A stretch of 64,000 nucleotides of DNA from a virus (taxonomy: Duplodnaviria; Caudoviricetes). Position 1 is the first letter of the stretch. Every line of letters begins with the position of its first letter. A program made the position numbers and the translations under genes. The stretch lies in the IMG/VR virus record IMGVR_UViG_3300003937_000325. One strand, written 5' to 3'. The notes below the pieces were generated by a model, which had not been told where the DNA came from, ran no database searches, and saw only the letters and a program-made list of their open reading frames with translations. Positions 6,342 to 63,937 of this stretch are shown here, one piece after another.

Positions 6342-6485
6342 TTAGTTTTTCTTATTAATTTTTACCATTAGTCTCTCTAATTGTGACTCAGATATAACAA
6401 TATTCTGAGGTTTTTTAGAAAAAGACTTTTTTCCGTCAGACTTTACGTTTAACGACTCGTTAAGTGTTTTTTTCTTGAATTCCAT
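6342..6485 (-). CDS. 47-aa basic mini-protein (not in ORF track) with IVISESQLERL motif
   Basis: Manual translation MEFKKKTLNESLNVKSDGKKSFSKKPQNIVISESQLERLMVKINKKN; fills the gap between sheath and HAD genes. Confidence 0.65.
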   Translation of the reverse strand: MEFKKKTLNESLNVKSDGKKSFSKKPQNIVISESQLERLMVKINKKN

Positions 6486-35614: not shown

Positions 35615-35620
35615 AGTTTT

Positions 35621-38524: not shown

Positions 38525-38627
38525 ATTATGTTGTTTTATATACTATAAGTTATTAATTTACTTATAAAAATAAACAAACAATTTAGATTTTTAAATAGTC
38601 TACTACATTTAGGATAAAATTATAATT

Positions 38628-44930: not shown

Positions 44931-45305
44931 ATGGCAAGACCTAAAAAAAAAGAAATAGTATTAAGTAAAGACTCAGTTCTTTCACTTATGCAAGAAATTT
45001 ACAACGAACTTGTAGAACAAAGAGCGACCGCTATAAGAATACAAAATAAAATGTTGGCGATGTTAAAGGACCCTGAGGATATGACCGTTATTGGACCTGT
45101 TATCAAAGAACAACAAAAAATCGTAAATGATACTATAGAAAAGAAACTATCACTTTCTAAGTTACAGTCAACAATATGGGAAAAAACTAATAATACCTCA
45201 AGCGAGGAATTTAGTTTATCTGAAATTGATGATGACACATTACAAACCTTAATACAACAAGATTTAAGCAGTGGTGACAAGAAGGACGGTTATAAACTTG
45301 ATTAA
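44931..45305 (+). CDS. Helical protein, possibly terminase small subunit (gp16-like)
   Basis: VIGPVIKEQQKIVNDTIEKKLSLSKLQ loosely resembles the gp16 central helices; weak. Confidence 0.3.
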   Translation: MARPKKKEIVLSKDSVLSLMQEIYNELVEQRATAIRIQNKMLAMLKDPEDMTVIGPVIKEQQKIVNDTIEKKLSLSKLQSTIWEKTNNTSSEEFSLSEIDDDTLQTLIQQDLSSGDKKDGYKLD

Positions 45306-45316
45306 AAATAACCATT

Positions 45317-49036: not shown

Positions 49037-49058
49037 GTATTTATATTAAAAAGAGTTT

Positions 49059-50522
49059 ATGTCTACTTATAAATCATATTTTAATAGAAACACAACTATT
49101 GTTTCAAATTCATACGCAAATACAGGTAGAAACCCTATATGCGAACTATTCTTTGGTGGGGTAGATAATGTAATTACTCCAAAAGGGTTTAGTCGTTTTT
49201 TATTCGATATTGAATTATCAGGAATAACTGAACAAATCAAACATGGTATTATCTCTACTGGTTGTTCAAAAAGTATGAAACATATTCTCAATATGACTAA
49301 TACTTCATCATTTGATTTGGAATTATTAAATGATACATGGTCTAATGGAAGAAGAAGAGCAACTTCTTTTGATTTAGTATTATTTAGAATACCTAAAGTT
49401 TCAGGAACCACAGGAGATATTCAATCGTGGGATGAAGGTGTTGGATACGATTATTACGATTTTACTGAATTACCTACAGACAAAGCCTACTCAAGTAGAC
49501 CAACTAATTGGTACGAATCTCAAACTATTTCAAATTGGTCAGTACCGGGGGTATACGATAATTTAAATACCAATTCAAGTACAGGGTTAAATTTCTCAGG
49601 TTTAACTATTATTGATACTCAACATTTTGAATTTGGTAATGAAGATATTAAATTTGATATGACTCAAGAGATAAATGATATATTAACGGGGGCGACTACT
49701 GGAGTTACAGGATGGGGAATCGCCTTTTATCCTCAAGTTGAAAATATTACAGGATTAACTGAAAACTACTCGGTAGGGTTTTTTACTACGAATACACAAA
49801 CATTTTATGAACCATACTTAGAAACTACATATGATGATTTAATAGAGGATGATAGAAATATTTTTTATGAAAATAAAGAAAATAAATTATATCTATACAG
49901 TTACCAATTCGGTAATCCTCAAAATTTTGATGAATTACCATCTGTAGATATTACAGATATGAATGGTTCAATATTATATTTAGATTTACCAACCTGTCAA
50001 ATAACTAATGGGGTATATGAAGTTATAGTACCACCATTAACATCATCAAGTATACCATGTATGATGTACGATACTTGGAAAAATTTAAAGATTAATGGAG
50101 TTAATATTTCTAATCAAACTAATGAATTTGTAGTTAATGACTTATCGGAGTTATATCAAATTGGTTCAACAACGAATGACCCTTCATTATATGGTTTTGA
50201 TTTTTTCGGAATTAAACAAGATGAAAAGATATTAGGACCAGATGTACGTAAAGTTAACGTCATAATTAAAAAAGCGTATACTACGAATGAAGTACTTAAT
50301 AAAGTTAACGCCTATTATAGGGTATATGTTAGAGAAGGTAAAACTGAAGTTCAAGTTCAAGATTGGACACAGTTAAATAGAACACCAGATAGTCACTATT
50401 TTATTTTTAATACTGAAGACAAAATACCTAACGAATATTTCATCGATATAAAAGTATTGACGGATAGAGAGATTAATACCTATAAAAGAGAATTAAAATT
50501 TCAAATAGTTAATAGAAAATGA
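49059..50522 (+). CDS. Putative structural protein (DNRLRE/Ig-like beta domains)
   Basis: SRFLFDI and SWDEGVG motifs; late motif 14 nt upstream. Confidence 0.4.
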   Translation: MSTYKSYFNRNTTIVSNSYANTGRNPICELFFGGVDNVITPKGFSRFLFDIELSGITEQIKHGIISTGCSKSMKHILNMTNTSSFDLELLNDTWSNGRRRATSFDLVLFRIPKVSGTTGDIQSWDEGVGYDYYDFTELPTDKAYSSRPTNWYESQTISNWSVPGVYDNLNTNSSTGLNFSGLTIIDTQHFEFGNEDIKFDMTQEINDILTGATTGVTGWGIAFYPQVENITGLTENYSVGFFTTNTQTFYEPYLETTYDDLIEDDRNIFYENKENKLYLYSYQFGNPQNFDELPSVDITDMNGSILYLDLPTCQITNGVYEVIVPPLTSSSIPCMMYDTWKNLKINGVNISNQTNEFVVNDLSELYQIGSTTNDPSLYGFDFFGIKQDEKILGPDVRKVNVIIKKAYTTNEVLNKVNAYYRVYVREGKTEVQVQDWTQLNRTPDSHYFIFNTEDKIPNEYFIDIKVLTDREINTYKRELKFQIVNRK

Positions 50523-50776
50523 AAAAGGTAACAATCACTGAAAACGAACTGATAGAAATAATCACTAGAGTAATTAGTGAAAAGAAAAAATCTAAAAAGA
50601 AAAAAAAGAAGAGCACTACTTTATGTGCAAGAGGTAAAAACGCGGCGAAAGCTAAATATGATGTTTACCCATCAGCTTACGCTAACGGTTACGCCGTCCA
50701 AGTGTGTAAAGGTAAGATGCCTGGTTTAGACGGTAAAAAAAGATGTTCAGGTAAATATTGTTCGGGTAAAAAATAA
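50519..50776 (+). CDS. Small highly basic Cys-containing protein with KKVTITENEL leader
   Basis: Poly-Lys tract; CARG...YPSAYANGYAVQVC. Confidence 0.65.
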   Translation: MKKVTITENELIEIITRVISEKKKSKKKKKKSTTLCARGKNAAKAKYDVYPSAYANGYAVQVCKGKMPGLDGKKRCSGKYCSGKK

Positions 50777-50780
50777 TTTG

Positions 50781-50788
50781 TATATTTG
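50781..50788 (+). promoter_or_regulatory. Bacteroidota-type -7 element TATATTTG (TTG 20 nt upstream)
   Basis: Exact TAnnTTTG match upstream of ORF 50808. Confidence 0.45.
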
Positions 50789-50807
50789 TTATATATAAAA
50801 AAAAATA

Positions 50808-51005
50808 ATGTATCGAAATACAACTTATCATTTTGTTAAAATTGTTAATGGGGAAGAAAAACTCATTATAGAAACCGAGTCTTCTTGTTTAGAAAGGGCT
50901 TTAGATTATTTCTACCTAATGGTACCTAAGGCCTATGGGGATAAGAGTTATACTATTAGAATTAAAAAAGATAATATTAGAAACGTTGCCAGTGAATGGG
51001 ACTAA
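50808..51005 (+). CDS. Hypothetical protein
   Basis: ORF track. Confidence 0.55.
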   Translation: MYRNTTYHFVKIVNGEEKLIIETESSCLERALDYFYLMVPKAYGDKSYTIRIKKDNIRNVASEWD

Positions 51006-51547
51006 GTAGTTTTTGATATAACCCATTTATACCCTACATCTCCACCATTTAATAACCAATTAACATACTCCATATCTTTTTGTGGTTTTCCTTTAAACGT
51101 TTCATTTAAAGTGATTGTTTCTTTTTTACTGTCAAAAAATTGTTTTAATTCTAATAGTTGGTTTTTAGAAATTACGTTATTCTCAACTATCTTTTGAGTG
51201 ACTCTATTAATTCCTTTAGAGTATGATAAACCCTTTTTCATTTGGCTAATTACCGGCGAAGGGACTCTAATATAATCATTATTTTCTATAATAACGATTT
51301 TAAGGTCACCAGAACCTTTAATTACTCTGTGGTATGTCTCTTTATTAATAATATATTTTTGTCCAACCTTAAGGTCCTGGGGTAACTCCTCATCCATTTG
51401 AAGCTTCCAACCGTCACTTGATTCTACAAATATAATACGGTCGTACTCATCTTTGTGCCATTTTAACTCTTCAGAGTTAACGGATTCATTAAAAACTCTA
51501 CGTTTTTTATTATGTGATAGTTGTGTGTCTGAATATATCATTACCAA
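51002..51547 (-). CDS. Cupin-like domain fused to a small helical domain
   Basis: ELKWHKDEYDR...GWKLQMD...YHRVIKG pattern. Confidence 0.5.
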   Translation of the reverse strand: MVMIYSDTQLSHNKKRRVFNESVNSEELKWHKDEYDRIIFVESSDGWKLQMDEELPQDLKVGQKYIINKETYHRVIKGSGDLKIVIIENNDYIRVPSPVISQMKKGLSYSKGINRVTQKIVENNVISKNQLLELKQFFDSKKETITLNETFKGKPQKDMEYVNWLLNGGDVGYKWVISKTT

Positions 51548-53133
51548 AATCTACCTGAGACATTTTTACCAAAATCTTTATGTGCTCTACACGCCCAATA
51601 ACCCGCCTTAGTTTTGTCTTTTTTCTTAGCACACTGATGTCTAGCCGCAAATGATTTACGAGCACCTGGGTCGTTCCATTTAGCTGTCATAACAGGTGAC
51701 CCATAAGAAACTTTTATAACTTTACCCGTTTTGGGGTTTTTAACGTACACATACCACTTTTTAGGTCCACCTGACTTAGGTTTGTTTAAACTAACATCTT
51801 TACCTTTATATTCGGCCTCATCTATTTCATTGGCATATGTTCCATCCCAACTAAAGGATTGTTCGTTTACCATTGGAAAATCAAATGGTAATCTTTCACC
51901 CTTATAATTAAAAAATTTACCTCTATCTGATTCTAATAACTCGATTTCTTCTTCTGACCATTCATTATGACCATCATTATATAACTTACGACCCTCATTA
52001 ATCACATCAAAGTATTTGGGGCTACCATATCTAAAAACATTTTCAGTTAATGAAATACGATTATCAATATGATATTGTAATTCTTCAGATATTACGGTCT
52101 TTTCTTTAGTGTATGACTTTAAAACCGATTCAATTAATTTAGTATCATCGACTAAATCCTCATCCTCTTTTTCGGGTTCACTTAACGGTATGGATACATC
52201 GTCAAAAGAATCTAACGTTTTTGGTTGTAATGGTGGGTCTAATAAAAATCTTTGATTAATCCAACTTCTTAATTCATTTTCAACAAAAAATTCAGGAACA
52301 GGTTTATCATCTGGCTCGTTTGATGCTATTTCTGAAATATGATAAGCGAATTTTAGTTTGTTTTCATTATTCATTAAATTCATTAACCCATCACTTATAA
52401 AAAATATTTGACTAAACGGGTCCACAGGATTAATATCTCCTTCAGCAAAACTAAATACCTTCATAATTGCCTTCGCCCACCAAGATTTATAGGATGACGT
52501 TTCTTTTAATGTTGGACCTATTAGTTTATTAAGTGCTCTAACTGCAGATGTAAACATTCCCGCTACGGCAATTTGTGGTATAAACCAAGGCATTAAACGT
52601 ATAAATGCTTTAAATCCACCTTCACCTACATGTTTAGCTAATCTTTTATTTTTAGCTCCGTTAACGATACTTCTTAATTGTCCAAAAGTAATGGGTCCTT
52701 GAGCGTTACAGAATTTTTTAGCGTCACAAATACTTTTAACTACTTTACTTGAAACATTAACGTCGCCCCCTAATTCCTCTAATACTAAGTTAACTAACTT
52801 ATCTATTGATTCATTTTTCTTTTTATAATTCTTCACTTTAATTCTTGTTGGTTTTTGACCTTTCCCTGTTTGAGTATCTTTCTTTTCTTTTTCTCGTTTC
52901 CTACGACAAGCCGAGTCTTTATCTTTCTGAGACATTTTACCTGCAACACCAGCACCTCGACATACGGGATACGCTCCTTTGTCTGCGTCTCCACGACCAC
53001 ATGGCGGGTGACCACCACCTTTTTTCTTTTTACATATATTAACCCATGGACCCTTTGGTTGTGAGGAACCTTTCTTTTTTTTCTTCTTTCCAAACCAAAC
53101 GGCTAAATCTTCTGTTAAAATATATTCACTCAT
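51541..53133 (-). CDS. Modular multi-domain basic protein (candidate processed core polyprotein)
   Basis: Basic Cys-containing N- and C-terminal modules separated by helical linkers carrying I/L/V-x-E motifs; late motif upstream. Confidence 0.65.
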   Translation of the reverse strand: MSEYILTEDLAVWFGKKKKKKGSSQPKGPWVNICKKKKGGGHPPCGRGDADKGAYPVCRGAGVAGKMSQKDKDSACRRKREKEKKDTQTGKGQKPTRIKVKNYKKKNESIDKLVNLVLEELGGDVNVSSKVVKSICDAKKFCNAQGPITFGQLRSIVNGAKNKRLAKHVGEGGFKAFIRLMPWFIPQIAVAGMFTSAVRALNKLIGPTLKETSSYKSWWAKAIMKVFSFAEGDINPVDPFSQIFFISDGLMNLMNNENKLKFAYHISEIASNEPDDKPVPEFFVENELRSWINQRFLLDPPLQPKTLDSFDDVSIPLSEPEKEDEDLVDDTKLIESVLKSYTKEKTVISEELQYHIDNRISLTENVFRYGSPKYFDVINEGRKLYNDGHNEWSEEEIELLESDRGKFFNYKGERLPFDFPMVNEQSFSWDGTYANEIDEAEYKGKDVSLNKPKSGGPKKWYVYVKNPKTGKVIKVSYGSPVMTAKWNDPGARKSFAARHQCAKKKDKTKAGYWACRAHKDFGKNVSGRFW

Positions 53134-53896: not shown

Positions 53897-55639
53897 TTAT
53901 CTTAAAGAGTTCAAGTCAAATGTTCTAACACCATCAACTACGATTCTACCATAGAAACGGTTATTAACCATTTTCTTAGCGTATCTCGTCATAATACCCT
54001 TTATCGGAGTAAAGTTGAACGGGTTATACATTGTAGGTGTCAACTGTAATGGTACATACGGTGCGTAAACGTACCCTGTATCCAATAATGAAGAACCTTT
54101 ATGTCCCAATAAAACAGTGTTTGGTGGGAAGTAAGGGTCTCTGTACACTTGGTATCTACCTGATAATGTACCTACTCTTTCAATACCCATGTTGTATTGG
54201 TCTTGGTCTGGAGCCGCATTTGATACGTGGAAGTATTCCAAGTCATCAAAGATAGCTGAAATTTCCGAAGAAACAACAATCCAGTTAGCTCCACCTCTTA
54301 ATGTAGATTTGTGAATTTGAGCTGAGATTTGGTTAATCGCAGTAATCAATGTCTGATTCCAGTCTTTTTGGTTATAGTTAACTGAACCATTAGACACTCT
54401 CTTCCATCCGTTGTAATCCCAACGTAATGTCCAAGCCGCACCTTTTCTTAAGTCTCTTAAGATTTCACGGTCAATTTCAGCAGCCACTTGTTCTGATAAT
54501 AAAGCTGTTAATTCAGCCTCAGCATCAATGTTATGGAATGCAGAAACATCTTGTGCTAATTCTGGAGACCATTGTGCTCTTAGTTTTCTTTCTGTAACCG
54601 ATACAGTAACTGCATCAAGGTCAAAAGAAACTTCACCCATTTGGTCTTCGAATTCTAAGTCAGCATATACTCTGTAAGTCGCACCAACCGTAGGGTTAGC
54701 CGCGAATGTAGTACCTGTATAACCATCGATTGAACAGTTAGCACATCCAACAACAGGTGTTGAAGTATCAACTGATAAATAAATTACACCGTCAGCAGTA
54801 CAAATATCATCATACTTACCACCTGGTCCTGTATAGTTTCCTGGAGGGAAGTTAGTTTGAGATTCGTTACCGTATTGAACGATACCTTTACCGTACTTCT
54901 GTGTTACCACGTTAAAGTTAAAGTAATCACCACCTATTTGTACTTCTAATGATGCTAAGAAATCCTCAGTATCTTGTTCGTTACCTGTAGGTCCGATTAA
55001 TTTACCTTGACCTGCAGATGCAAATCCTGATAATGCAACTAAAAGTGTTCTTTGGTTACCTGCATAATCACCTGCAGCCGCAACTACTAATGATGAACCA
55101 TCCCATTTTACTAATGTGGTATTAGCAGCAATTCCTGAAAACGCTCCTTTAGAGTAATCGAATAACCCAGCTGGGTCTGAATTCGGTGCAGAACCTTCGT
55201 AAAATCTATCATAAAGGTTTTTACCTGAACCGTAGTTTACTGACGTACCAGAAGGACCATTAGGTGCTCCGAAAGGTGCAACATGTGTTCCATCAGCATT
55301 TCTGTTCTGAATTTTAGGTACAAAGTAGAATAATTTACCGATTGGTAAGTTCATCGCTTGTACTGATACGATATCATTAGCTAATAATTTAGAGAATACT
55401 CTTCTAATGATAGGGAAGACTACTGTTTCAAATGAACCTGAGTTATCTGAAGCAGATGCTTCGTTAATTAAGTGAGACGCTTGGTTTTCATATAATTGTG
55501 CCATGTTCTCTTTTACGTGACCTTTAAGACCCTCTAGGAATCCTAATTTGTCCCATTTGTTGATTGTGTCTTCTTTGATAACTTTAAGGTGTTTTAACCC
55601 AATATTACCAACAAGACCTGATTCTAATAATGCTCCCAT
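53897..55639 (-). CDS. gp23: Major capsid protein (T4 gp23-like)
   Basis: SVQAMNLPIGKLFY, RKLRAQWSPELAQD, ELTALLSEQVAAEIDREI, GYVYAPYVPL and GIMTRY. Confidence 0.97.
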   Translation of the reverse strand: MGALLESGLVGNIGLKHLKVIKEDTINKWDKLGFLEGLKGHVKENMAQLYENQASHLINEASASDNSGSFETVVFPIIRRVFSKLLANDIVSVQAMNLPIGKLFYFVPKIQNRNADGTHVAPFGAPNGPSGTSVNYGSGKNLYDRFYEGSAPNSDPAGLFDYSKGAFSGIAANTTLVKWDGSSLVVAAAGDYAGNQRTLLVALSGFASAGQGKLIGPTGNEQDTEDFLASLEVQIGGDYFNFNVVTQKYGKGIVQYGNESQTNFPPGNYTGPGGKYDDICTADGVIYLSVDTSTPVVGCANCSIDGYTGTTFAANPTVGATYRVYADLEFEDQMGEVSFDLDAVTVSVTERKLRAQWSPELAQDVSAFHNIDAEAELTALLSEQVAAEIDREILRDLRKGAAWTLRWDYNGWKRVSNGSVNYNQKDWNQTLITAINQISAQIHKSTLRGGANWIVVSSEISAIFDDLEYFHVSNAAPDQDQYNMGIERVGTLSGRYQVYRDPYFPPNTVLLGHKGSSLLDTGYVYAPYVPLQLTPTMYNPFNFTPIKGIMTRYAKKMVNNRFYGRIVVDGVRTFDLNSLR

Positions 55640-55663
55640 TTTAGTATTTGTTTTTTTTAAATT

Positions 55664-57196
55664 TTATTTTTGAAGTTTACCCATTAAATCCTTCATTCTC
55701 ATGAACTGAGGATTTTCGTAAGTTTTACTTTCGATAAGATTTGTAGCAGAACCTTTAGATGGTGATTTCTGTACTTTAGATGCAACTGATTCAGTTACAA
55801 CTGCAGAACTTCCTTTCGAGTCTAAATCTTCTTTTACAGTCTTATAAAGACTTTTCGATTCCTTGATTGTTTCAGCAGAATCAAAACGTCTTAAAATGTT
55901 TATTTTTTCTTGTTTTGTTGTCGAATGCTCAGTAAACAGTCGAGTAGCGTATGCTAGATTTGAATTGAAAACAGCAACTTCATTAAGTTTTTCTTTAAAG
56001 ATGTTAAGTGCCTTACGGTACTCTTCATTTTTTTCTCTTAATTGTTTTACTTCTTTCTCAAGTGATTCATTGTACCTTGCTCTATTAGGAATAGAATGTG
56101 GTTTTGAAAGTCCTTTAGATTTATCAGAAGATGCTTTCTGTCCAGCAGCGTGACTTCTCACCATACCTTCTTTAGCCTCTTCGTAATCTTTGTGAGATTT
56201 TGAATCATCACCTTTTTTACCTCCGAACTCTTCATTAGATTCTTCATAATCCTTGTGAGATTTTGAGTCGTCTCCTTTTTTACCTCCATACTCTTCGTAA
56301 TGTTCCTCTTTGTGATGTTCTTCAGCATCGTGGTGTGCGTCTTTTTTCAACTTCTCAATTTGTGAGTAGTCGTCTTCAGCTGCGTCACCATAATAGTTTC
56401 CGTCATCCTCTCCGAGTTCAATTTCATAAACTACTTCGTCTCCTTCGTTAGATTCTTCATAATCCTTGTGAGATTTTGAATCGTCACCTTTCTTACCTCC
56501 GTATTCTTCATTTGATTCTTCATAATCTTTGTGAGATTTTGAATCATCGCCTTTCTTACCTCCGAATTCTTCGTTAGATTCTTCGTAGTCCTTATGAGAT
56601 TTAGAGTCGTCACCTTTCTTACCTCCGAATTCCTCCATTTGAATTTGATATTCAACATCAGCCTCATCATCTTTAAGTGTGATTTCGTCACCGTCTTGTG
56701 TAACAACGATTCCGTCTTCTTCACCCATAGCTTTAAAGACCTTAAGGATTTCTTCGTCAGATGCGCCTGTAAGGTCAAGTGGTAAAAGAATTTCTTCTTC
56801 GTCATCCACTTCTAACTCATCACCTGGTAAATCCATCATAAGCATATCATCAGTATCAATTTCCATATCATCCTCATCCTCATCGGATTCGTCTTCAATG
56901 TCCATGTCAACATCTAGTTCCATGTCGTCTTCAATGTCAAGTTCGTCTTGTTCTTTTGTTTCGTGCTTTACAGATTTCTCCATATCGTCACCTTCTTCCA
57001 TTTTTTCACCTTCCATTGCTTCAACAGACACTTCGTCTTCAATCTCTTCTTCATTTAGAGATTCTTTTACTAATTCACTGATTTCTTCCTTCATAGTAGA
57101 AGCAAGTATTCCTTTTGCATTCTCCGTAACGGCTTCCTTCAAATTTTCCATTTGTAGTAGCGCTTCTTCAACTAAGTTTTGTTTTTTTTGTGCCAT
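55664..57196 (-). CDS. Prohead core scaffold protein (T4 gp22-like), acidic with internal repeats
   Basis: Acidic N-half and coiled-coil C-half (LNEVAVFNSNLAYATRLF); position between protease and MCP. Confidence 0.75.
   Translation of the reverse strand: MAQKKQNLVEEALLQMENLKEAVTENAKGILASTMKEEISELVKESLNEEEIEDEVSVEAMEGEKMEEGDDMEKSVKHETKEQDELDIEDDMELDVDMDIEDESDEDEDDMEIDTDDMLMMDLPGDELEVDDEEEILLPLDLTGASDEEILKVFKAMGEEDGIVVTQDGDEITLKDDEADVEYQIQMEEFGGKKGDDSKSHKDYEESNEEFGGKKGDDSKSHKDYEESNEEYGGKKGDDSKSHKDYEESNEGDEVVYEIELGEDDGNYYGDAAEDDYSQIEKLKKDAHHDAEEHHKEEHYEEYGGKKGDDSKSHKDYEESNEEFGGKKGDDSKSHKDYEEAKEGMVRSHAAGQKASSDKSKGLSKPHSIPNRARYNESLEKEVKQLREKNEEYRKALNIFKEKLNEVAVFNSNLAYATRLFTEHSTTKQEKINILRRFDSAETIKESKSLYKTVKEDLDSKGSSAVVTESVASKVQKSPSKGSATNLIESKTYENPQFMRMKDLMGKLQK
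56177..56635 (-). repeat. Five 21-aa repeats EE(F/Y)GGKKGDDSKSHKDYEESN in two blocks (56447-56635 x3; 56177-56296 x2, last copy partial)
   Basis: Visible in the translation; 63-nt DNA units differ mainly at synonymous positions. Confidence 0.9.
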
Positions 57197-57290
57197 TTTA
57201 GTTATTTTTTTGCAAAATGTTTATTTATAGTTTTTATAATAAATATACACGAATTAAAAAAAAATCACTTTATAAAACAATAGGCAAAAA

Positions 57291-57313
57291 AAAATCGGGG
57301 TTTACCCGATTTT
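57291..57313 (-). terminator. Intrinsic terminator
   Basis: AAAATCGGG-GTTTA-CCCGATTTT followed on the minus strand by poly-T. Confidence 0.7.
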
Positions 57314-57338
57314 AATTTTATAATATGTATGTGAAGTA

Positions 57339-57548
57339 TTACTCGATTACTTCATCAATTTTACTTTCGACACATGCAGATATTCTCCAATCGTGAGTAA
57401 AACCTTCAAAGGCTTTAGTAACTTTAGCCTCAACATCTGTTACGTTAAAACCTTTAACTAATTTTTCTTCTCTGATTTTTTTAATCTTACCTGAATGCTC
57501 GTCTGGCATATCATACTGAATTTTTGCTACAAAATACTTTTCTTCCAT
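57339..57548 (-). CDS. DUF4494-like small protein (Bacteroidota-associated family)
   Basis: KYFVAKIQY...KKIREEKLV...TDVEAKV...ESKIDEVI pattern. Confidence 0.45.
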   Translation of the reverse strand: MEEKYFVAKIQYDMPDEHSGKIKKIREEKLVKGFNVTDVEAKVTKAFEGFTHDWRISACVESKIDEVIE

Positions 57549-57572
57549 TTTATTTTTTTTTCTTAGTTTTAA

Positions 57573-58295
57573 TTAATATCCTAAATAATCGGTTAATTTT
57601 TTCATTAAGTCAAGTGATTTGTCTAAACCTTTTTCAGGTTCACCATTTACACTTCTTTGTTTTGTCTCTTCTTCAATGTTCTCATCGTACTTCATTCTAT
57701 CATCTTGATTAAGGAATAAGTAAGCTCCTGGTGTTGATGGTGAAGATACTAAATCAAAACAAATTAATTCAAAATCGTCCTGCACTTCATTCCTTTCACC
57801 TTTTTTAACTAAAGAACCTACACCACGAGATGATACCCCCATAGTGACTCCCTGTCTCATAAGATTTGCCGCTTGGTCTCCTGGACATGATACAACACCT
57901 GTTTTATGAAAACCTGGTGATGTCAATAATTTTATTTTACCCATTAGAACATTACCTTCCCACCACATATCAGTTATCAAGTGTGATACACGGTCTAAGT
58001 CGATAAGTGACGATTCAGGGTGATTAAGTTCTGATATCGATAATCCTTTCTTTATTGCCTCTTGGTATTTTTCACCTTCTCTCCTTAATATTGATTCGGG
58101 ATATATTCTACCGTTTCTATTTGGTGTGTCGTATTTTTGTAATACTGCGTAAAACTCAAAAGGTTTAGAATGGTCTAATTGACCGTATGATTCTTTTATA
58201 ATATCGGCGTTACGTTTATCGTTTGGGTTTATAAAACCGGCATCCCACTCAATTAAAATCCCTTTACCCGTATCATTTGGTCCTAATATTTTCAT
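57573..58295 (-). CDS. gp21: Prohead core protease (T4 gp21-like)
   Basis: NRNGRIYP, ELNHP (His), GVSSRGVGS (Ser) and DLVSSPSTPGA. Confidence 0.93.
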   Translation of the reverse strand: MKILGPNDTGKGILIEWDAGFINPNDKRNADIIKESYGQLDHSKPFEFYAVLQKYDTPNRNGRIYPESILRREGEKYQEAIKKGLSISELNHPESSLIDLDRVSHLITDMWWEGNVLMGKIKLLTSPGFHKTGVVSCPGDQAANLMRQGVTMGVSSRGVGSLVKKGERNEVQDDFELICFDLVSSPSTPGAYLFLNQDDRMKYDENIEEETKQRSVNGEPEKGLDKSLDLMKKLTDYLGY

Positions 58296-58322
58296 ATCTT
58301 TTATTTTATAAATATGCTACGT

Positions 58323-58709
58323 TTAGTATTCCATCGAGATAAAAACGTCCCATTCACTTATTCTAATTGGAGTTACTCTTAATAATTGGTTTATTTTGTC
58401 ACTAACGAATATCTTATATTCTGTTGTTAAAACAGAATCGTCACCTTCTCCTGAGAAAAAAACGTAGTTATTCGCGAAGTCTGTAACTTCCTGTCCTTTA
58501 TAAATTACTTTACCAATTTCAACCCGAACACTTATATCTTCGTCTTGAATATCACCTTCTATCATAACACTACTTGGTAAAATAAAAGTATCCCCATAAC
58601 CAAATTCATATATAAATTTTTTAGGGTCTATAAGATTATTAAGATTATCTACAAGCGTATTTGCTTCAAATAATCTTAATAATTGACTTTCATTAATTAC
58701 GACTTTCAT
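58323..58709 (-). CDS. Hypothetical protein with MKVVINESQLLRLFE leader
   Basis: ORF track; late motif 15 nt upstream. Confidence 0.65.
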   Translation of the reverse strand: MKVVINESQLLRLFEANTLVDNLNNLIDPKKFIYEFGYGDTFILPSSVMIEGDIQDEDISVRVEIGKVIYKGQEVTDFANNYVFFSGEGDDSVLTTEYKIFVSDKINQLLRVTPIRISEWDVFISMEY

Positions 58710-58733
58710 TTAGTTGTTTTAACTATAAATAGA

Positions 58734-59171
58734 TTAAACAGACTGTTTTTTAGTTTTATGTAGTATAAAATATTTTGATTTCATTAACGGATACCCATAT
58801 AATGTATTAACTATTTGTTTTATCCTGTCTCTAAGTATCAACGATTTAAAGTCTATTTGTTCTTTTACAAATAATGTTACCTCTAAATTCATAAAACTTC
58901 TTTTACCTAATTGTATACCACTACTTCTTAAATCTAAATCGACTATGTTATGTTTTTCAAATAATAACGGGTCCACCGATTCTAATAAGTGATGTTTAAT
59001 GTCCCTCTCTAACATACCTGTCGTTCTAACCCAATTATGAGCCGTCATTGTTGGTTCCACCCAACTTTGTATGAGAATATAAACTGATTTTAATTTTTTT
59101 GCATCTACTGTTCCATAACTACATTTCGCGTTTTCGTATCCCGTTAATTGGGACGTTTTTCCTTTTTTCAT
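58734..59171 (-). CDS. Hypothetical protein
   Basis: ORF track; preceded by TTGACA-N17-TATATT. Confidence 0.65.
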   Translation of the reverse strand: MKKGKTSQLTGYENAKCSYGTVDAKKLKSVYILIQSWVEPTMTAHNWVRTTGMLERDIKHHLLESVDPLLFEKHNIVDLDLRSSGIQLGKRSFMNLEVTLFVKEQIDFKSLILRDRIKQIVNTLYGYPLMKSKYFILHKTKKQSV

Positions 59172-59504: not shown

Positions 59505-60239
59505 TTATAAACCGTGTTCTAATTGTTTTAACTTATAAAGTGAAGTTAATGAAATTTCGGACTCATTAATATGACTTATAGTCTGATTTACTTTTTCATG
59601 TAAATCTTCATCATTCGATTCATTAATTTTTTCAGTTAATTTTTCTAATACAATACTTTTAGAATTTACAATCTCTTCAGCTAATTCAGTTTTAGAGAGT
59701 GATAAAAGAGCCTTTAATTCTTTTTTATCTTCCTCACTGATATCACCATATTCCTTATTAAATGTGTTTGTTGCTATTTTTAACATAGAACTTAAAGGAA
59801 TGTTAACTGATTCGTTAATTTTCACATCATCTTTATTTTCACCTAATAACTTTTTTATATTATTTTTACACTCTAAAACTTCTTCTAAGTTTCTAACCGA
59901 GTTATTATAAACTACAGTATCAATATCGGTATAGTTGTTATCTGAATTATTTTTTAATCCTTCAGAAACCCACATATTAATTTCTTTAATTTTTTTATCC
60001 TCAGTAGTTAATATATCTTTTATTGTTTCAATACATTCATTTACGTAGTCATCAACAATTTCTTTGGATAAACCTTTTTTATTGGAAAGTTCATCATAAA
60101 GAAAATATGCTTCAGCAAGTTTCTCGTTCTCAATTACATGATTTTTAAATGACTTCATATTGGTTTTAAAAGAATTTTTACCATATGACTTAGTCATTAA
60201 AGATTCTATATTTGATTTTATTTGTCCGAATTTATTCAT
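59505..60239 (-). CDS. Helical hypothetical head-assembly-region protein
   Basis: Directly downstream of portal; late motif 13 nt upstream; several I-N-E motifs. Confidence 0.6.
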   Translation of the reverse strand: MNKFGQIKSNIESLMTKSYGKNSFKTNMKSFKNHVIENEKLAEAYFLYDELSNKKGLSKEIVDDYVNECIETIKDILTTEDKKIKEINMWVSEGLKNNSDNNYTDIDTVVYNNSVRNLEEVLECKNNIKKLLGENKDDVKINESVNIPLSSMLKIATNTFNKEYGDISEEDKKELKALLSLSKTELAEEIVNSKSIVLEKLTEKINESNDEDLHEKVNQTISHINESEISLTSLYKLKQLEHGL

Positions 60240-60259
60240 AACGTTTTTTATTATAAATA

Positions 60260-62116
60260 TTAGTCATCTAGTAATGTTCTTAGTTCATCTTCAATTTTAC
60301 CTAAAGAATCTCTCCCTTTCGATAAGTCAATTTCGGATATACCATTAATCATATCATTTTCTAATATCATATTTAAATCTTTTTCTGAAGTACTTTCAGG
60401 TGTAACCTCAGCCGTAGTGTCACCACCCGTATCTGTACCACTATCACCTAAATCACTACCTAAATCACCACCTAAATCACCACCTAAGTCGCCTCCAAAA
60501 TCACTTCCACCACCACCAAATCCGGTGTCAGAAGGTTCTGTAACCTCACCTTCAGGTGCGCCACCTTCTCCAGGTTTATCACCATATAATTTATCGATGT
60601 TTGCAAATATTCCTGTTTTAGTAATTGTTTCAGGTGTTTTTTCAAGTTCCGCTCCAACAGCCTTTTCGATTCTTTGTTGTTGTAAATCTAATTTAATTTC
60701 TTCATCTGAGAAACCAAGAATATGTTTTTTAGCCCAAGAAGATGAAACAGGTTGTATACCATTACCTGGGTCAGAAACCGCATCACGGTAAAGAGCAACT
60801 TTTTGTTGCCATTGTTCAACTTTAAGTAAGTCCGCTTGTGTTGATGGGTTAGTAAGACCTAATGTAAAATTATTTAATTCGTCTTCAAAACCTAATAGAT
60901 ACAAATGTATTATAGCAATTTTATTTAACTCTTGAATCATAGATTTTTGAATTCTATTGATTGTACGAGCGAATCTTATATCTTGTAACGCTAAGTTTTT
61001 ACCATCACCAACAACCTCTTCAAACCCTAAAAATGCTTTAGGTACTCTAAGTGCAGTTAATAATTTCTTTTGTATATATTCAATATCAGCAATTTCTGAT
61101 AAGTTTTGTGCTCCTGGTAATGTGTCGATAGGGTTAGGTGCGTTAGCGTCTCTAACGGGTATGAAGTAATCTTGGTCAACCGCCATTTGATTATATCTTA
61201 AATCGACATTACCGTTATTAGAGTCCACAATTTGGTCTCTTTTAAATTTGTTAGCAACTCTCTGTACGTAAGGTTCGACATCTTTGTCATCCATGTTACC
61301 TACAAAAACTTTGAATACTCGTCTTTCAGGTGCTCTTGATGTTCTATAAACTAACATAGCATCTTCAGATAAAATAAGTTGTTTCCATATTCTTCTTGCC
61401 TTTTCTAACATAGAAGTACCATAAGGTAATTTACGGTCATCACCTAATAATCTAAAGTGAGCCACTTCCCACGTATTTAATACCATATCTTTATTTTGCC
61501 ATAAGAATTTTAAAGCATCGTTATCGGTATCTGTACTATTTTTTTCAGGTTTAATTTTCATTCCTCGTTCTTGACGAGTAATTTCAATATTAGGTAGTTG
61601 TTGTACCCCCATAACCCCTTTCTCAGGGTCTAATTTTAGATAAACGAAGTTATCCCCATACTTACAAGTATTTCTTGTCCACATAGGTAGATTAGTACTA
61701 ATATCGAGTCTATTGTTAAATAAATCCCCAAGTACTGATTTAATTCGTTTACTTTCTGAGTAAATTTGTAATATATATCCATCTTCATTCGCAGTTGTTG
61801 ATTCTTCCCCATATATATCTAACGCCGCAGATATTTCGGGCGTATATTCCATACTTTCATAATCATAAAATGAAGCTAGTCTAGTCGGTTCATAATATAC
61901 CGCTTGAGTATATAAGTTGTTCTCTACCTTCTGCCATTGTTGACCAAGATAGAGTGTTTGTTGGGCTTGAAGTTTTTCTCTCTCATACTCCTTTTTATCG
62001 GGAGTCTTTAAAAGTTCTTTCTTATCAAACTTAAATACGGGAGCTTGTTGGTCTAACGTTGAGTCAGGACCAAATACCTTAGTAAGTCGTTGCCATATAG
62101 TATAATTTTCTGCCAT
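60260..62116 (-). CDS. gp20: Portal protein (T4 gp20-like)
   Basis: PYGTSMLE, EDAMLVYRTSRAPERRVF, DYFIPVR, TLPGAQNL and DIEYIQKKL. Confidence 0.95.
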   Translation of the reverse strand: MAENYTIWQRLTKVFGPDSTLDQQAPVFKFDKKELLKTPDKKEYEREKLQAQQTLYLGQQWQKVENNLYTQAVYYEPTRLASFYDYESMEYTPEISAALDIYGEESTTANEDGYILQIYSESKRIKSVLGDLFNNRLDISTNLPMWTRNTCKYGDNFVYLKLDPEKGVMGVQQLPNIEITRQERGMKIKPEKNSTDTDNDALKFLWQNKDMVLNTWEVAHFRLLGDDRKLPYGTSMLEKARRIWKQLILSEDAMLVYRTSRAPERRVFKVFVGNMDDKDVEPYVQRVANKFKRDQIVDSNNGNVDLRYNQMAVDQDYFIPVRDANAPNPIDTLPGAQNLSEIADIEYIQKKLLTALRVPKAFLGFEEVVGDGKNLALQDIRFARTINRIQKSMIQELNKIAIIHLYLLGFEDELNNFTLGLTNPSTQADLLKVEQWQQKVALYRDAVSDPGNGIQPVSSSWAKKHILGFSDEEIKLDLQQQRIEKAVGAELEKTPETITKTGIFANIDKLYGDKPGEGGAPEGEVTEPSDTGFGGGGSDFGGDLGGDLGGDLGSDLGDSGTDTGGDTTAEVTPESTSEKDLNMILENDMINGISEIDLSKGRDSLGKIEDELRTLLDD

Positions 62117-62164
62117 ACTTCTTTTTTAGATAAATAGTAACATTATTTGAATTAAACTAAACAT

Positions 62165-63937
62165 TTAAAATTTTCCAAATAACCAAGAATTATCTTGATA
62201 GTCTTGCCTAGTCGCTTGTCCTCTGTGTCTATTGTGGTTTATTCCCCCTGGTAATGCAGATAAACTTGGATGAAAATCGTTAGAGGTATTTTTGACGGGA
62301 GTTTCATTAACTAACCAACTTTCCATCATGGCTTTAGTTTGTTCTGTCACCTTTTCTAATTGAGTAAATGAATTTTCCCCAACATAAATCGCCATAGCTA
62401 TAGCCATAATTAAATCATCATGTTGTCCTTTTTGGTGGTCGGGTCTACCGTTAATGTAAACAAAAGTGTTTAATTCATTTAATAACCTTGTTGACCTTAT
62501 TTCAAAATTATGTCTTAAGGCCTCTTCAAATGATGCCACAATCTGTACTCTTTTATTATTGAAATTTAATCCAGGAATCTTATCTAAAGTTTTAGGGTTA
62601 TATTTCCATTTATCAGCGGCATTAACACCTTCAACATATAAGTTTTTATATCCTAATTCTTGTAACTTTCTTGATGTAGATACACCCATACCACCCGTAA
62701 TATCAATTACAATAAATGCTGAATACATTGTCGCCCATTTAAATGCTATTTCTGCGACGACATCTGGTGGTACCTTACCTAAATACTCAAGAACTTGTTC
62801 TCTTGTTTCAAAATCTATTATAGTAAATGTTGTATAATCCTCACTATCACCACGAGAAACATCAATACCCATAATATATTTATGTCCTTGTATTGGCTCT
62901 TTCCATTGCCATAAAGAACCACCTATAAACTTATTTATTGGTTCTTGTATATAGTTTTGTTTAATAATTTCAATCGTACTATTTGGGATGACGTTATCCC
63001 CTGAACCCAAGAAGTTACACTCCAATTCCTGTGAGATTTTTCTTCTATCGAATTTAAGTTTTTTAGCCATACCTTCGAACCATGAAGAATAAACTTTGTA
63101 TCCATTTGCTAATTTTTCTTTAATTTCTACATAATCCCTTTCACGAGGTTTTATGTCGGTATAGTTTATTATAATTTTACTATCATCATAATCTTCTCTA
63201 TTTAACATGTAATGGATAATATCATTACATTTTATAAGTTGTAGGTCTCTAGCGTAACGAGGGTCACGATACCAATACATCTCAGTTATTTTAAAATCAT
63301 TCATACCCCTTAGTGCTTGGTCATAAATGGTATAATATATCGGGTCAAACCCGTTAGGCGTAGAAATTACGATAACTTTACCACCTGTAGAAAGTGACGC
63401 CATACATGCAGACCAAAAGTCATCATCAGCATCAATAAACGCAGCCTCGTCAAAAATAAGTATTGTTGGTGTATACCCACGAAGTGCATCTTTTGAGGTT
63501 GCAACTGCTTTAACTTCACAACCATTTGATAATTTAAAATGTCTTTGAGAATTTTTTTCGTTAGAATAAGATATCCCAAACCATGTAGGCCATTGGTCAA
63601 TAAAACTTCTAACCTTATTAGCGAATTCTTGTGATGTATCTAATTTGTTTGCAATTATTAGTACCTTTTCAGGTTTTTTCTTAGACGCAGTAACCACTTT
63701 TTTTGATGCCCAAGCTGCGGTAACTGTAGATACACCGGCCTGTCTATACTTTAAGGCAATATTTTCCTCATAAGTATCATAATCATTAATTAATGTTTTT
63801 TGGTCTGAAAATAATTCTAAAGGTACGTACTGTGATTGTGTATTATCGTAGGTTTGTAGATAAGTTTTTAACGCGTAAGGGGTATCTTTTACACACCTAG
63901 CATATTCCAATAAAACTTGCTCTCTTGATAGTCCCAT
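62165..63937 (-). CDS. gp17: Terminase large subunit (T4 gp17-like)
   Basis: KYRQAGVST Walker A, IFDEAAF Walker B, ISTPNG, QELEC and GIDVSRG...HDDL nuclease motifs. Confidence 0.95.
   Translation of the reverse strand: MGLSREQVLLEYARCVKDTPYALKTYLQTYDNTQSQYVPLELFSDQKTLINDYDTYEENIALKYRQAGVSTVTAAWASKKVVTASKKKPEKVLIIANKLDTSQEFANKVRSFIDQWPTWFGISYSNEKNSQRHFKLSNGCEVKAVATSKDALRGYTPTILIFDEAAFIDADDDFWSACMASLSTGGKVIVISTPNGFDPIYYTIYDQALRGMNDFKITEMYWYRDPRYARDLQLIKCNDIIHYMLNREDYDDSKIIINYTDIKPRERDYVEIKEKLANGYKVYSSWFEGMAKKLKFDRRKISQELECNFLGSGDNVIPNSTIEIIKQNYIQEPINKFIGGSLWQWKEPIQGHKYIMGIDVSRGDSEDYTTFTIIDFETREQVLEYLGKVPPDVVAEIAFKWATMYSAFIVIDITGGMGVSTSRKLQELGYKNLYVEGVNAADKWKYNPKTLDKIPGLNFNNKRVQIVASFEEALRHNFEIRSTRLLNELNTFVYINGRPDHQKGQHDDLIMAIAMAIYVGENSFTQLEKVTEQTKAMMESWLVNETPVKNTSNDFHPSLSALPGGINHNRHRGQATRQDYQDNSWLFGKF

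What the first reader, a model, noticed from the sequence alone, without database searches (positions are those of the whole stretch)
53897..58709. Shared I/L/V-x-E leader motif suggests a capsid-targeting and protease-cleavage code for many cargo proteins
Seen: MCP has ALLE|S and HLINE|AS (residue 60, comparable to T4 gp23 cleavage at E65). Similar amphipathic segments occur in 58709 (KVVINESQLLRLFE), 50519 (KVTITENELIEIITRVISE), 6485 (IVISESQLERL), 28272 (VKGLINE), 14002 (QILTE; KSIISE), 53133 (EYILTE), 20417 (RRLLGESE), 6333 (KKLQE), 60239 (VKINES), scaffold (SLNEE, VVTES, LIES) and the portal tail (MILEN). Nearly all are in TATTTAT-led units. Known: T4 gp21 cuts after Glu in I/L-x-E, and T4 internal proteins carry a cleavable N-terminal capsid-targeting sequence. 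Inference: a general loading tag that lets unrelated enzymes (SOD, WYL, phosphatase, cupin) be packaged and matured, which could be engineered for protein delivery.
Basis: partly seen in the sequence, partly recalled or inferred. Interest (0 to 1): 0.7.

Follow-up and report, generated by a model that had tools for sequence, protein, structure and literature searches.

The report
Shared head-loading leader on phage proteins
This uncultured marine jumbo T4-like phage puts one conserved leader of about 20 residues, ending in its head protease's likely cut site, on a few unrelated late proteins; it looks like a longer, far more widespread version of phage T4's tag for loading proteins into the head.

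Summary
Every quoted string is present, and the region is a T4-type head module: terminase, portal, three small genes, S77 protease, acidic scaffold and gp23-like capsid protein. The loose [ILV]-x-E motif does not discriminate.

Inside the list there is a real signal: an N-terminal leader, M-K-K-[IV]-I-[RK]-L-T-E-S-[DQ]-L-x-x-I-V-K-R-V-I-x-E-Q. In the window only three genes carry it: the 128-aa gene (58709), the 85-aa gene (50519) and the 47-aa ORF (6485). It heads at least 12 unrelated families in relatives and 3,313 protein clusters worldwide, nearly always at residue 1. Leader genes are enriched behind the TATTTAT late-type element, and the long contigs that carry them encode S77 proteases.

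The capsid protein's L-I-N-E60|A aligns with conserved phi-x-E|A sites in distant relatives, downstream of motifs shared with T4 gp23.

The SOD, WYL, phosphatase and cupin "cargo" claims are unsupported.

My best reading, at roughly even odds, is a T4 capsid-targeting-sequence analogue. Neither packaging nor cleavage has been shown. The scan has reported similar leaders on other DNA.

The parts
53897..55639 (-). Major capsid protein, gp23 family, 580 aa
   Evidence: PF07068 E=5.9e-72, phrog_138; matches T4 gp23 structures
55460..55639 (-). Predicted MCP propeptide, residues 1-60, ending L-I-N-E60|A. A second site, A-L-L-E6|S, lies at the extreme N-terminus.
   Evidence: It shares the NKW and ENQ motifs with the T4 gp23 propeptide. 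The phi-x-E|A site after ENQA is kept in Flavobacterium phage immuto (QIVSE|AN) and Microcystis phage Mel-JY01 (QLISE|AN). MAFFT instead aligned T4 FLTE65 with GSFE71|T, so the exact bond is not settled.
55664..57196 (-). Acidic scaffold protein, 510 aa, in the gp22 position. It has conserved helical ends and EEFGGKKGDDSKSHKDYEESN repeats whose number varies.
   Evidence: Synteny with T4 genes 20-67-68-21-22-23. The N-terminus NLVEE|A resembles T4 gp22 QLIAE|A. Orthologue alignment shows conserved VVTE|S and LIE|S/N. No Pfam or PHROG hit.
57573..58295 (-). Prohead serine protease, S77 (T4 gp21 family), 240 aa
   Evidence: PF03420 E=1.6e-23, phrog_207 E=1.9e-43. N-terminal ILIE16|W resembles T4 gp21 LLIE9|T.
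58323..58709 (-). 128-aa leader-bearing protein in the position of T4 gp68, directly upstream of the protease
   Evidence: Leader HMM 31 bits at residue 1. 37 homologues keep MK-phi-phi-I-[NT]-E-x-Q-L-x-R-L-[FS]-E|ANT. In the AF2 model residues 1-17 have pLDDT below 50 and the rest is a moderately confident alpha/beta domain.
58665..58709 (-). Leader of the 128-aa protein, MKVVINESQLLRLFE, with two candidate cut sites: I-N-E7|S and L-F-E15|A
58725..58731 (-). TATTTAT late-type promoter element 22 nt before the 128-aa start. The same element lies at 58308-58314 (protease), 60253-60259 (244 aa) and 62130-62136 (portal).
   Evidence: Across the window and six related contigs, 24 of 37 leader genes against 235 of 1012 other genes have it at -10 to -50 (odds ratio 6.1, p=1.6e-7).
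59505..60239 (-). 244-aa helical protein after the portal gene, a likely prohead-core protein. It has three I-N-E|S sites, with Glu at residues 143, 207 and 226.
   Evidence: In five orthologues all three sites persist as hydrophobic-x-acidic (one orthologue has I-N-D at the third), mostly followed by Ser, while the flanks vary. I-N-E-[SA] enrichment.
58734..59171 (-). 145-aa conserved protein between the portal and the protease. It has no leader and no family hit.
60260..62116 (-). Portal protein, gp20 family
   Evidence: PF07230 E=3.7e-78
50519..50776 (+). 85-aa leader-bearing protein: leader, then a Lys run, then a Cys-rich domain. The leader occupies 50519-50581 (MKKVTITENELIEIITRVISE|KKK).
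   Evidence: Leader HMM 33 bits at residue 1. The C-terminal domain matches phrog_27331, a 50-position family, at residues 34-74, so that domain occurs elsewhere without the leader. The gene overlaps the end of the TATTTAT-led 487-aa gene.
6342..6485 (-). 47-aa ORF carrying the leader core in its C-terminal half (6351-6401, IVISESQLERLMVKINK), plus T-L-N-E|S near its N-terminus
   Evidence: Leader HMM 15 bits at residues 28-39. The ORF and its stop are conserved in two relatives.
51541..53133 (-). 530-aa Lys/Cys-rich protein with a short conserved N-terminus, M-S/D-E-Y-I-L-[ST]-E-[DE]-L, followed by a Lys run. It is only weakly leader-like.
   Evidence: The N-terminus is conserved in four orthologues, but the leader HMM scores -1.3 bits. 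TATTTAT at -41.

Best explanation
The window carries a T4-type head-assembly module. Its S77 serine protease most likely cuts after Glu in hydrophobic-x-Glu sites. The predicted substrates are the capsid protein (removing about 60 residues at L-I-N-E60|A), the acidic scaffold and the small core-position proteins.

Separately, a defined N-terminal leader marks a small set of otherwise unrelated late proteins in this window: the 128-aa, 85-aa and 47-aa products. Its consensus is M-K-K-[IV]-I-[RK]-L-T-E-[SN]-[DQ]-L-x-x-I-V-[KR]-[KR]-V-I-x-E-Q. A short form, M-K-phi-phi-I-[NTS]-E-S-Q-L, also exists. The same leader marks many more proteins in relatives.

I infer that it works like the T4 capsid-targeting sequence. 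The leader docks the protein into the scaffolding core while the prohead is built. The protease then clips it at the first phi-T-E|S, at the terminal I-x-E|Q, or at both. The mature protein stays in the head and leaves with the DNA.

Shown here: the leader exists, is N-terminal, is modular, is linked to late-type promoters and is widespread. Inferred: binding to the core, cleavage, packaging and ejection.

For: Head module and protease family. Synteny with T4 20-67-68-21-22-23.

MCP site: the propeptide shares NKW and ENQ with T4 gp23, and phi-x-E|A is kept in 42%-identical MCPs of immuto and Mel-JY01.

The leader is non-random. There are 19 hits of 12 bits or more against 0 in reversed or shuffled controls. 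In the 98%-complete 295-kb relative G015 there are 15 against 0.

The leader is N-terminal. 144 of 148 top global hits start within 12 residues of the N-terminus. The one apparent leaderless orthologue simply uses a GTG start.

The leader is modular. At least 12 bearer families show no similarity beyond residue 28, with different domains: PG_binding_1, weak EF-hand-like and OmpA-like matches below Pfam cut-offs, and a Lys/Cys-rich domain.

The leader is widespread. 3,313 cluster representatives reach E<=1e-3 among 1.84 billion proteins, and at least 283 IMG/VR loci carry it.

Protease link: 11 of 19 leader contigs of 50 kb or more carry S77, including both that are at least 90% complete.

Late co-expression: TATTTAT precedes 65% of leader genes against 23% of others, p=1.6e-7.

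The 128-aa bearer sits between portal and protease, where T4 has core proteins gp67 and gp68.

The leader ends in I/L/V/M-x-E in the top global hits (P3 Ile in 136 of 156 leader copies matched there).

Internal second copies are preceded by phi-x-E within 12 residues in 17 of 35 cases, against a 19% background. The junction is typically phi-x-E|[NS]-K-K, as expected for cleavable cassettes.

In form the leader matches the T4 CTS: T4 IPII and IPIII start MKTYQEFIAE|A, and T4 propeptides are 10-20 residues ending in L/I-x-E (PMC9026906, PMC5694885).
Against: No proteomic, structural or genetic datum shows cleavage or packaging. No cultured relative exists; the best cultured MCP hit is 42% identical.

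The leader is far longer and more conserved than a T4 CTS and shows no sequence homology to it. The leader profile finds nothing in T4, immuto or Mel-JY01.

P1' after the terminal Glu is mostly Gln. Every T4 site read here has Ala, Ser or Thr at that position.

Many cargos are Cys-rich or peptidoglycan-binding, which points to action in the periplasm or outside the cell, not the cytoplasm.

In G015 most leader genes cluster 60-85 kb from the head genes.

The I-N-E-[SA] enrichment and the junction statistic were defined after looking at the data.
Confidence: 0.5

Rival explanations
1. The leader is an uncleaved docking or oligomerisation helix. It attaches accessory proteins to some other conserved virion part (tail, baseplate, whiskers or the capsid exterior), much as conserved N-terminal anchors let phages swap receptor-binding proteins.
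For: The 19-24 residues are conserved far beyond what a cut site needs. The hydrophobic residues (L8, I11/V12, I15/I16 of IRLTESDLENIVRRIITEQ) have the 3-4 spacing of an amphipathic helix. Cargos include PG_binding_1, OmpA-like and Cys-rich domains, which suit an extracellular or periplasmic role. Late-promoter linkage fits any virion protein. The 85-aa bearer lies beside a 518-aa gene whose N-terminus (GECIDNIDPMGLGRIRAV) I read, without a family search, as baseplate-hub-like.
Against: It does not explain the near-invariant phi-x-E at the leader end, followed by linker-like sequence. It does not explain the phi-x-E|[NS]-K-K junctions before internal copies. It does not explain why a bearer sits in the gp67/gp68 slot next to the protease. 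Very small basic bearers (85 aa with a Lys run) resemble internal proteins more than surface decorations.
Confidence: 0.2
2. The leader is a recognition tag for another conserved phage machine, not for the scaffold or protease. Candidates are the ClpC-like AAA+ unfoldase encoded near the head genes, or a modifying enzyme that serves many substrates through one shared leader, as in RiPP systems.
For: A 666-699-aa open frame matching the AAA_2 (Clp/Hsp100) family lies within about 7-14 kb of head genes in all five relatives checked. An earlier scan report (e1-127136) found a different shared phage leader that tracks a radical-SAM enzyme, which shows that shared leaders need not be capsid tags.
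Against: No radical-SAM gene occurs in 570 kb of relatives. The Clp co-occurrence is clade-wide and so not specific. Nothing links the leader sequence to Clp adaptor or degron motifs. The Glu-site features are left unexplained.
Confidence: 0.12
3. The pattern is compositional chance in an AT-rich, Lys/Glu/Ile/Leu-rich proteome, with no shared function.
Against: The tight leader has no hits in reversed or shuffled controls. It sits at residue 1 in 144 of 148 global hits. It is found on 3,313 clusters at library-wide E<=1e-3.
Confidence: 0.03

Closest known systems
Phage T4 capsid-targeting sequence (CTS) of internal proteins IPI, IPII, IPIII and Alt (Mullaney & Black 1996; reviewed in PMC9026906, PMC3012670, PMC5694885)
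   Same: Both are N-terminal peptides starting M-K, shared by otherwise unrelated proteins and ending in hydrophobic-x-Glu. Both occur in a phage with a gp21-type S77 protease and a scaffold core. T-even IP loci are likewise polymorphic apart from the conserved CTS. The first 9-10 leader residues (MKKIIRLTE|S) match the T4 MKTYQEFIAE|A in length and form.
   Different: The leader is 19-24 residues, not 10, and is far more conserved. It has two candidate Glu sites. It shows no detectable sequence homology to the T4 CTS. It sits on thousands of protein clusters, not a handful. It often recurs internally between modules. Its cargos are often Cys-rich or peptidoglycan-binding. Function is untested.
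T4 gp21 maturation of gp23, gp24, gp22, gp67 and gp68 at L/I-x-E
   Same: The gene order is the same (portal, small core genes, protease, scaffold, MCP). The MCP propeptide is homologous and has a phi-x-E|A site. The core-position proteins have several conserved phi-x-E|S sites.
   Different: The propeptide is 60 residues against 65, and the site lies 11 residues before the conserved VVFPIIRR block, against 27 in T4. The scaffold is twice as long, with acidic repeats. No homologue of gp67 or gp68 is detectable by sequence.
Long propeptides of ejection proteins in phiKZ-like giant phages (201phi2-1, phiKZ, SPN3US; PMC5694885, PMC10052503)
   Same: Many head-internal proteins are processed by a T4-related prohead protease after Glu. 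Paralogues gp53 and gp54 share an identical 15-residue N-terminus with cut sites. The propeptides are thought to target the prohead.
   Different: Those sites are A/S/G-x-E, and the propeptides are mostly over 100 residues and not shared across unrelated families. The lineage is also different: phiKZ-like giant phages have no confirmed gp22-type scaffold.

Membership tests
T4-type capsid-targeting sequence (functional class) | Lies at the extreme N-terminus of the precursor | tested here: met
   144 of 148 global hits and nearly all local hits start within 12 residues of the N-terminus. The exception in the window is the 47-aa ORF, where the core lies at residues 29-45.
T4-type capsid-targeting sequence (functional class) | Shared by proteins that are otherwise unrelated | tested here: met
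   At least 12 bearer families have no BLASTP similarity beyond residue 28, and their domains differ.
T4-type capsid-targeting sequence (functional class) | Ends in the prohead-protease site L/I-x-E, and the phage encodes a gp21-type protease | tested here: met
   Terminal [ILVM]-x-E, with P3 Ile in 136 of 156 matched leader copies. S77 protease in the window and in 11 of 19 long leader contigs. P1' is mostly Gln, unlike the T4 sites read here.
T4-type capsid-targeting sequence (functional class) | Removed by the protease during head maturation | not testable with these tools
   There is no cultured relative and no proteome. Only sequence-level compatibility is available.
T4-type capsid-targeting sequence (functional class) | Necessary and sufficient to load a protein into the prohead core | not testable with these tools
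   This needs fusion-protein packaging experiments.
T4 CTS (sequence family, MKTYQEFIAE) | Detectable sequence homology to the T-even CTS | tested here: not met
   The leader profile A2 finds no match in the whole T4 genome. The T4 CTS was read directly and shares only M-K and the phi-x-E ending.
T4-like head module (gp20, gp21, gp23) | Pfam families Portal_T4, Peptidase_S77 and Gp23 in T4 gene order | tested here: met
   PF07230 3.7e-78, PF03420 1.6e-23, PF07068 5.9e-72. T4 gene order.
gp23-type MCP propeptide | An N-terminal segment homologous to the T4 delta-region, ending at a phi-x-E|A bond before the conserved N-arm block | tested here: met
   NKW and ENQ motifs align with T4. L-I-N-E|A, Q-I-V-S-E|A and Q-L-I-S-E|A are conserved. 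The exact bond is unverified, and MAFFT offers S-F-E71|T as an alternative.
Radical-SAM/SPASM shared-leader substrates | A radical-SAM enzyme encoded with the tagged genes | tested here: not met
   PF04055 is absent from five related contigs totalling 570 kb, while the control genomes are all positive.

The most novel reading that the evidence does not exclude
The leader is a universal address label for a greatly expanded cargo system. Hundreds of swappable proteins, often Cys-rich, peptidoglycan-binding or membrane-inserting, would be made as leader-cargo cassettes, sometimes several per polypeptide. They would be loaded into the prohead, possibly with help from the ClpC-like unfoldase encoded beside the head genes, cut apart at phi-x-E junctions, and ejected into the host envelope, not the cytoplasm. 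That would make these marine jumbo phages carriers of a large envelope-directed effector arsenal.
Probability: 0.12. Interest if true: 0.85.

Novelty: new variant of a known kind. Interest (0 to 1): 0.55.

Why it matters
If the leader is a head-loading tag, abundant uncultured marine jumbo phages package a large and rapidly changing set of proteins for delivery with their DNA. That set would be far larger than T4's three internal proteins plus Alt. It would assign a cellular location to thousands of "hypothetical" phage proteins at once. It would also offer a longer, better-defined tag for protein-packaging engineering. The work also gives a practical warning: [ILV]-x-E alone cannot be used to predict prohead-protease substrates in AT-rich phages.

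Tried and rejected
1. The loose [ILV]-x-E motif as a code is rejected: it occurs at chance level and is equally frequent in glycan-island proteins.

2. SOD, WYL-like, HAD-like, the 151-aa protein, the portal tail and the scaffold as leader bearers: no leader-HMM signal. The WYL-like GLINE lies inside the domain hit. The SOD junctions I-L-T-E|M and I-I-S-E|G are conserved, but the whole region is conserved too.

3. Complex prediction of the scaffold (A5) with the 128-aa protein (A1) returned 'no answer', score 0.00. This is not evidence either way.

4. AF2 model of the 128-aa protein (pLDDT 70.7), with Foldseek searches of BFVD and PDB: no match at E<=0.001. Only insignificant resemblance to ring-building motifs such as EscJ, PrgK and SpoIIIAH appeared.

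5. tblastn of a 28-aa leader against 50,697 phage records found no match. The leader profile found nothing in T4, immuto or Mel-JY01, and only two weak hits in LR756508.

6. Genomic context of two top global hits (P0044, P0039): the contigs are under 2 kb and uninformative.

7. Radical-SAM rival: the enzyme is absent.

8. Literature searches for the motif strings, and for CTS together with marine or jumbo phages, found nothing relevant.

9. Pfam scan of ten long global bearers gave almost no domains.

10. The apparent leaderless orthologue in G005 was an artefact of my ATG-only gene calling; it starts with GTG.

Full report
WHAT IS THERE

The window (GC 0.30-0.36) is part of an uncultured marine jumbo myovirus. 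The closest held record shares 22% of the window's 31-mers. Earlier notes on this genome call it about 300 kb.

On the minus strand between 53.9 and 63.9 kb lies a T4-type head module:
- TerL, 62165-63937.
- gp20-type portal, 60260-62116.
- Three small genes of 244, 145 and 128 aa.
- An S77 prohead protease, 57573-58295.
- A DUF4494 protein.
- A 510-aa acidic scaffold.
- A gp23-type major capsid protein, 53897-55639.

The order matches T4 genes 20-67-68-21-22-23. Flavobacterium phage immuto and Microcystis phage Mel-JY01, whose MCPs are about 42% identical, have the same layout.

CHECKING THE OBSERVATION

- [ILV]-x-E occurs 367 times in 19,946 residues, or 1.84 per 100 aa against 1.50 expected from composition.
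- Half of all proteins have one in their first 30 residues.
It is: 1.80 per 100 aa on the structural/late side against 1.91 in the 26.7-44.9 kb glycan island (p=0.64). N-terminal presence is 57% against 39% (p=0.20).

A REAL SIGNAL INSIDE THE LIST

Three of the listed N-termini share much more than a tripeptide. They are MKVVINESQLLRLFE (128 aa), MKKVTITENELIEIITRVISE (85 aa) and IVISESQLERLMVKINK (47-aa ORF).

The pattern [ILV][ILVT][ILV][STN]E[SNDE][QE]L occurs three times in the six-frame translation of the window, each time in one of these ORFs.

I fetched five related contigs (G002-G006, 570 kb) and a 98%-complete 295-kb relative (G015). The same leader heads many more proteins there. A typical example is MSKKIIRLTESDLENIVRRIITEQ.
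- A profile built from 16 seeds gives 19 hits of 12 bits or more in the real proteins and none in reversed or shuffled ones.
- In G015 the count is 15 against 0.
- Nearly all hits begin at residues 1-8.
- The bearers fall into at least 12 families with no similarity beyond residue 28.
- Their other domains differ: PG_binding_1, weak EF-hand-like and OmpA-like matches below Pfam cut-offs, a Lys-run plus Cys-rich domain, and mostly nothing known.

In the window only the 128-aa (31 bits), 85-aa (33 bits) and 47-aa (15 bits) products match. SOD, the WYL-like protein, the HAD-like protein, the 151-aa and 530-aa proteins, the 244-aa protein, the scaffold, the portal and the MCP do not.

HOW WIDESPREAD THE LEADER IS

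A 30-position profile of the leader (A3) finds 3,313 cluster representatives at E<=1e-3 among 1.84 billion proteins.
- Of the top 148 hits, 144 carry it at the N-terminus.
- Lengths run from 29 to 1,072 aa.
- The consensus is MKK[IV]IRLTESDLTRIVKRVI[NKS]EQ.
- P3 of the terminal Glu is Ile in 136 of 156 leader copies matched in those hits, and P1' is Gln in 116.
- Two of the top hits are tail-fibre repeat proteins (ITESQVTNLV...). These are look-alikes, not bearers.

IMG/VR holds at least 283 confirmed loci. Of 19 leader contigs of 50 kb or more, 11 encode an S77 protease. That includes both contigs that are at least 90% complete. I found no paper that mentions the motif.

The scan itself has reported comparable shared leaders in other T4-like phage genomes. 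Among them is a 25-residue one that also joins modules. Another first-reader note on this same genome lists further bearers beyond the window.

EVIDENCE BEARING ON MECHANISM

(a) Timing. TATTTAT lies 13-24 nt before the starts of portal, protease, the 244-aa and 128-aa genes, tail and other structural genes, and is absent from the glycan island. Over the window and six related contigs it precedes 24 of 37 leader genes against 235 of 1,012 others (odds ratio 6.1, p=1.6e-7). Leader proteins are therefore made with the virion proteins, provided TATTTAT is the late promoter, which is itself an inference.

(b) Position. The 128-aa bearer sits directly upstream of the protease, where T4 has the core proteins gp67 and gp68. 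Its leader is kept in all 37 homologues and in the G005 orthologue, which starts with GTG.

(c) Cut-site logic.
- The MCP propeptide is homologous to that of T4 gp23 (NKW and ENQ motifs). L-I-N-E60|A corresponds to Q-I-V-S-E|A in immuto and Q-L-I-S-E|A in Mel-JY01. MAFFT aligned T4 F-L-T-E65|A with S-F-E71|T instead, so the exact bond is open.
- In all five orthologues the three I-N-E|S sites of the 244-aa protein persist as hydrophobic-x-acidic, mostly followed by Ser, amid variable flanks; one orthologue has I-N-D at the third site.
- I-N-E-[SA] occurs 6 times against 0.9 expected, and 5 of the 6 are in MCP, the 128-aa and the 244-aa proteins. This was a post hoc choice of motif.
- The leader has two candidate sites. 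The first is phi-T-E|S at residue 7-10, with a small P1' as in T4, which gives a propeptide the size of the T4 CTS (MKTYQEFIAE|A, read from the T4 genome). The second is the terminal I-x-E|Q, which is followed by linker-like sequence.

(d) Cassettes. 31 of 148 top global hits carry a second, internal leader. In 17 of 35 internal copies a phi-x-E lies within the 12 residues upstream, against a 19% background. The junction is typically phi-x-E|[NS]-K-K-phi-phi-R-L-T-E. That is what cleavable leader-cargo modules would look like.

(e) Structure. In the AF2 model of the 128-aa protein the leader (residues 1-17) is low-confidence, while the remainder (about residues 30-128) is a moderately confident alpha/beta domain.

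WHAT ARGUES FOR CAUTION

- Nothing here shows cleavage, packaging or ejection.
- The leader is twice as long as a T4 CTS and far more conserved. It has no sequence homology to the T4 CTS, and its profile finds nothing in T4, immuto or Mel-JY01. Such conservation suggests a specific receptor that I could not identify.
- Many cargos are Cys-rich, bind peptidoglycan or contain membrane segments. That points to the envelope, not the cytoplasm. It fits ejection proteins, but it fits virion-surface accessories equally well.
- In G015 most bearers cluster 60-85 kb from the head genes.
- A ClpC-like AAA+ protein is encoded within about 7-14 kb of head genes in all five relatives tested. It is a conceivable alternative reader of the tag. 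The co-occurrence is clade-wide and therefore weak.
- A radical-SAM partner, as proposed for a different shared phage leader in an earlier scan report, is absent.

VERDICT

The strings are there. The loose motif is chance, and a tight leader is real for three of the listed genes.
Protease maturation of head proteins is very likely. A CTS-like loading leader is the best explanation at about 0.5, and remains untested. The claim that SOD, WYL, phosphatase and cupin enzymes are tagged cargo is not supported.
- In kind this is a new variant of a known system, the T4 CTS with gp21 processing. It is notable for the leader's length, its conservation and its spread over thousands of protein clusters.

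Noticed in passing
L053:3901-5208 with G002 45205-45735; L067:10675-11916 with G003 151913-152437; L074:10995-12512 with G004 110408-110956; G004 135107-136366 with 134522-135037; L079:816-2042 with G005 60249-60788: In relatives, leader-bearing proteins of 400-505 aa are each paired with an adjacent protein of about 175 aa that has a classical signal peptide (MKKILLILLTL...SQ). One of the large partners (408 aa) has a weak OmpA Pfam match; I read OmpA-like C-terminal stretches in the others by eye. Five such pairs were seen. One of them lies directly after the MCP gene in G004, where the window has other genes.
   Followed up: partly
window 11081-11641 (-); G002 35184-35888 and 37313-39340; G003 142313-142993 and 144327-146246; G015 159086-160186: A second recurrent N-terminal leader, L-[IL]-x-E-[IV]-x-R-[IL]-K-x-x-M-G-L-[IL]-x-E-[GQ], heads unrelated proteins in relatives. 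The window's 186-aa Cys-rich protein (MKKLLKEINFIKTRMSHMCEG) is a weak variant. A third type, I-D-E-S-E-K-x-R-I-L-G-[ML]-H, also recurs.
   Followed up: partly
window 22706-24596 (-): The 63-aa ORF 24405-24596 (MEFFIRKNSTLPIIK...) is the N-terminus of a 1,515-1,689-aa Thr/Pro-stalk protein in G004 and G005. In the window the frame breaks after about 70 residues and continues in another frame through a very short Pro/Thr tract into the 458-aa ORF 22706-24082. This is either a real frameshift or truncation, or a collapsed repeat in the assembly. The 117-aa gene 22319-22672 shares the same N-terminal domain.
   Followed up: partly
window 55664-57196 (-): The scaffold protein contains five copies of a 21-residue unit, EE[FY]GGKKGDDSKSHKDYEESN. 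Copy number differs between close relatives, from none to three.
   Followed up: no
window 14002-15564 (+): An Fe/Mn superoxide dismutase carries a 42-residue N-terminal extension and a C-terminal extension of about 265 residues of unknown family, behind a TATTTAT element. The junctions I-L-T-E|MKKIG and I-I-S-E|GASAG are conserved in two orthologues.
   Followed up: partly
G002 48873-50891; G015 about 122.8 kb; G003 about 155.9 kb; G022 about 205.7 kb; G023 about 216.4 kb: An open frame of 666-699 aa matching the AAA_2 (Clp/Hsp100) family lies within about 7-14 kb of the head genes in all five relatives examined.
   Followed up: partly
window 50519-50776 (+) and 51541-53133 (-): Both proteins have a run of 6-10 lysines right after a short N-terminal helix, followed by Cys-rich segments. 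The 530-aa protein ends in a phrog_7595 domain, and the 85-aa protein ends in a phrog_27331 domain. In relatives the 530-aa gene varies from 293 to 653 aa.
   Followed up: no
window, for example 58725-58731, 58308-58314, 60253-60259, 62130-62136 (-): TATTTAT, often as [AC]TATTTATA, sits 13-24 nt before structural-gene start codons, which leaves a very short leader RNA. Its genome-wide count (28 and 31 on the two strands) is no higher than composition predicts (about 33 and 32). Only its position is special.
   Followed up: partly
G002-G006 contigs, for example G002 11521-13583 and G003 82316-86452: At least 14 phage proteins begin with Sec or lipoprotein-type signal peptides of the style I associate with Bacteroidota. 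Together with DUF4494, which I also associate with Bacteroidota, this hints at a marine Bacteroidota host.
   Followed up: no
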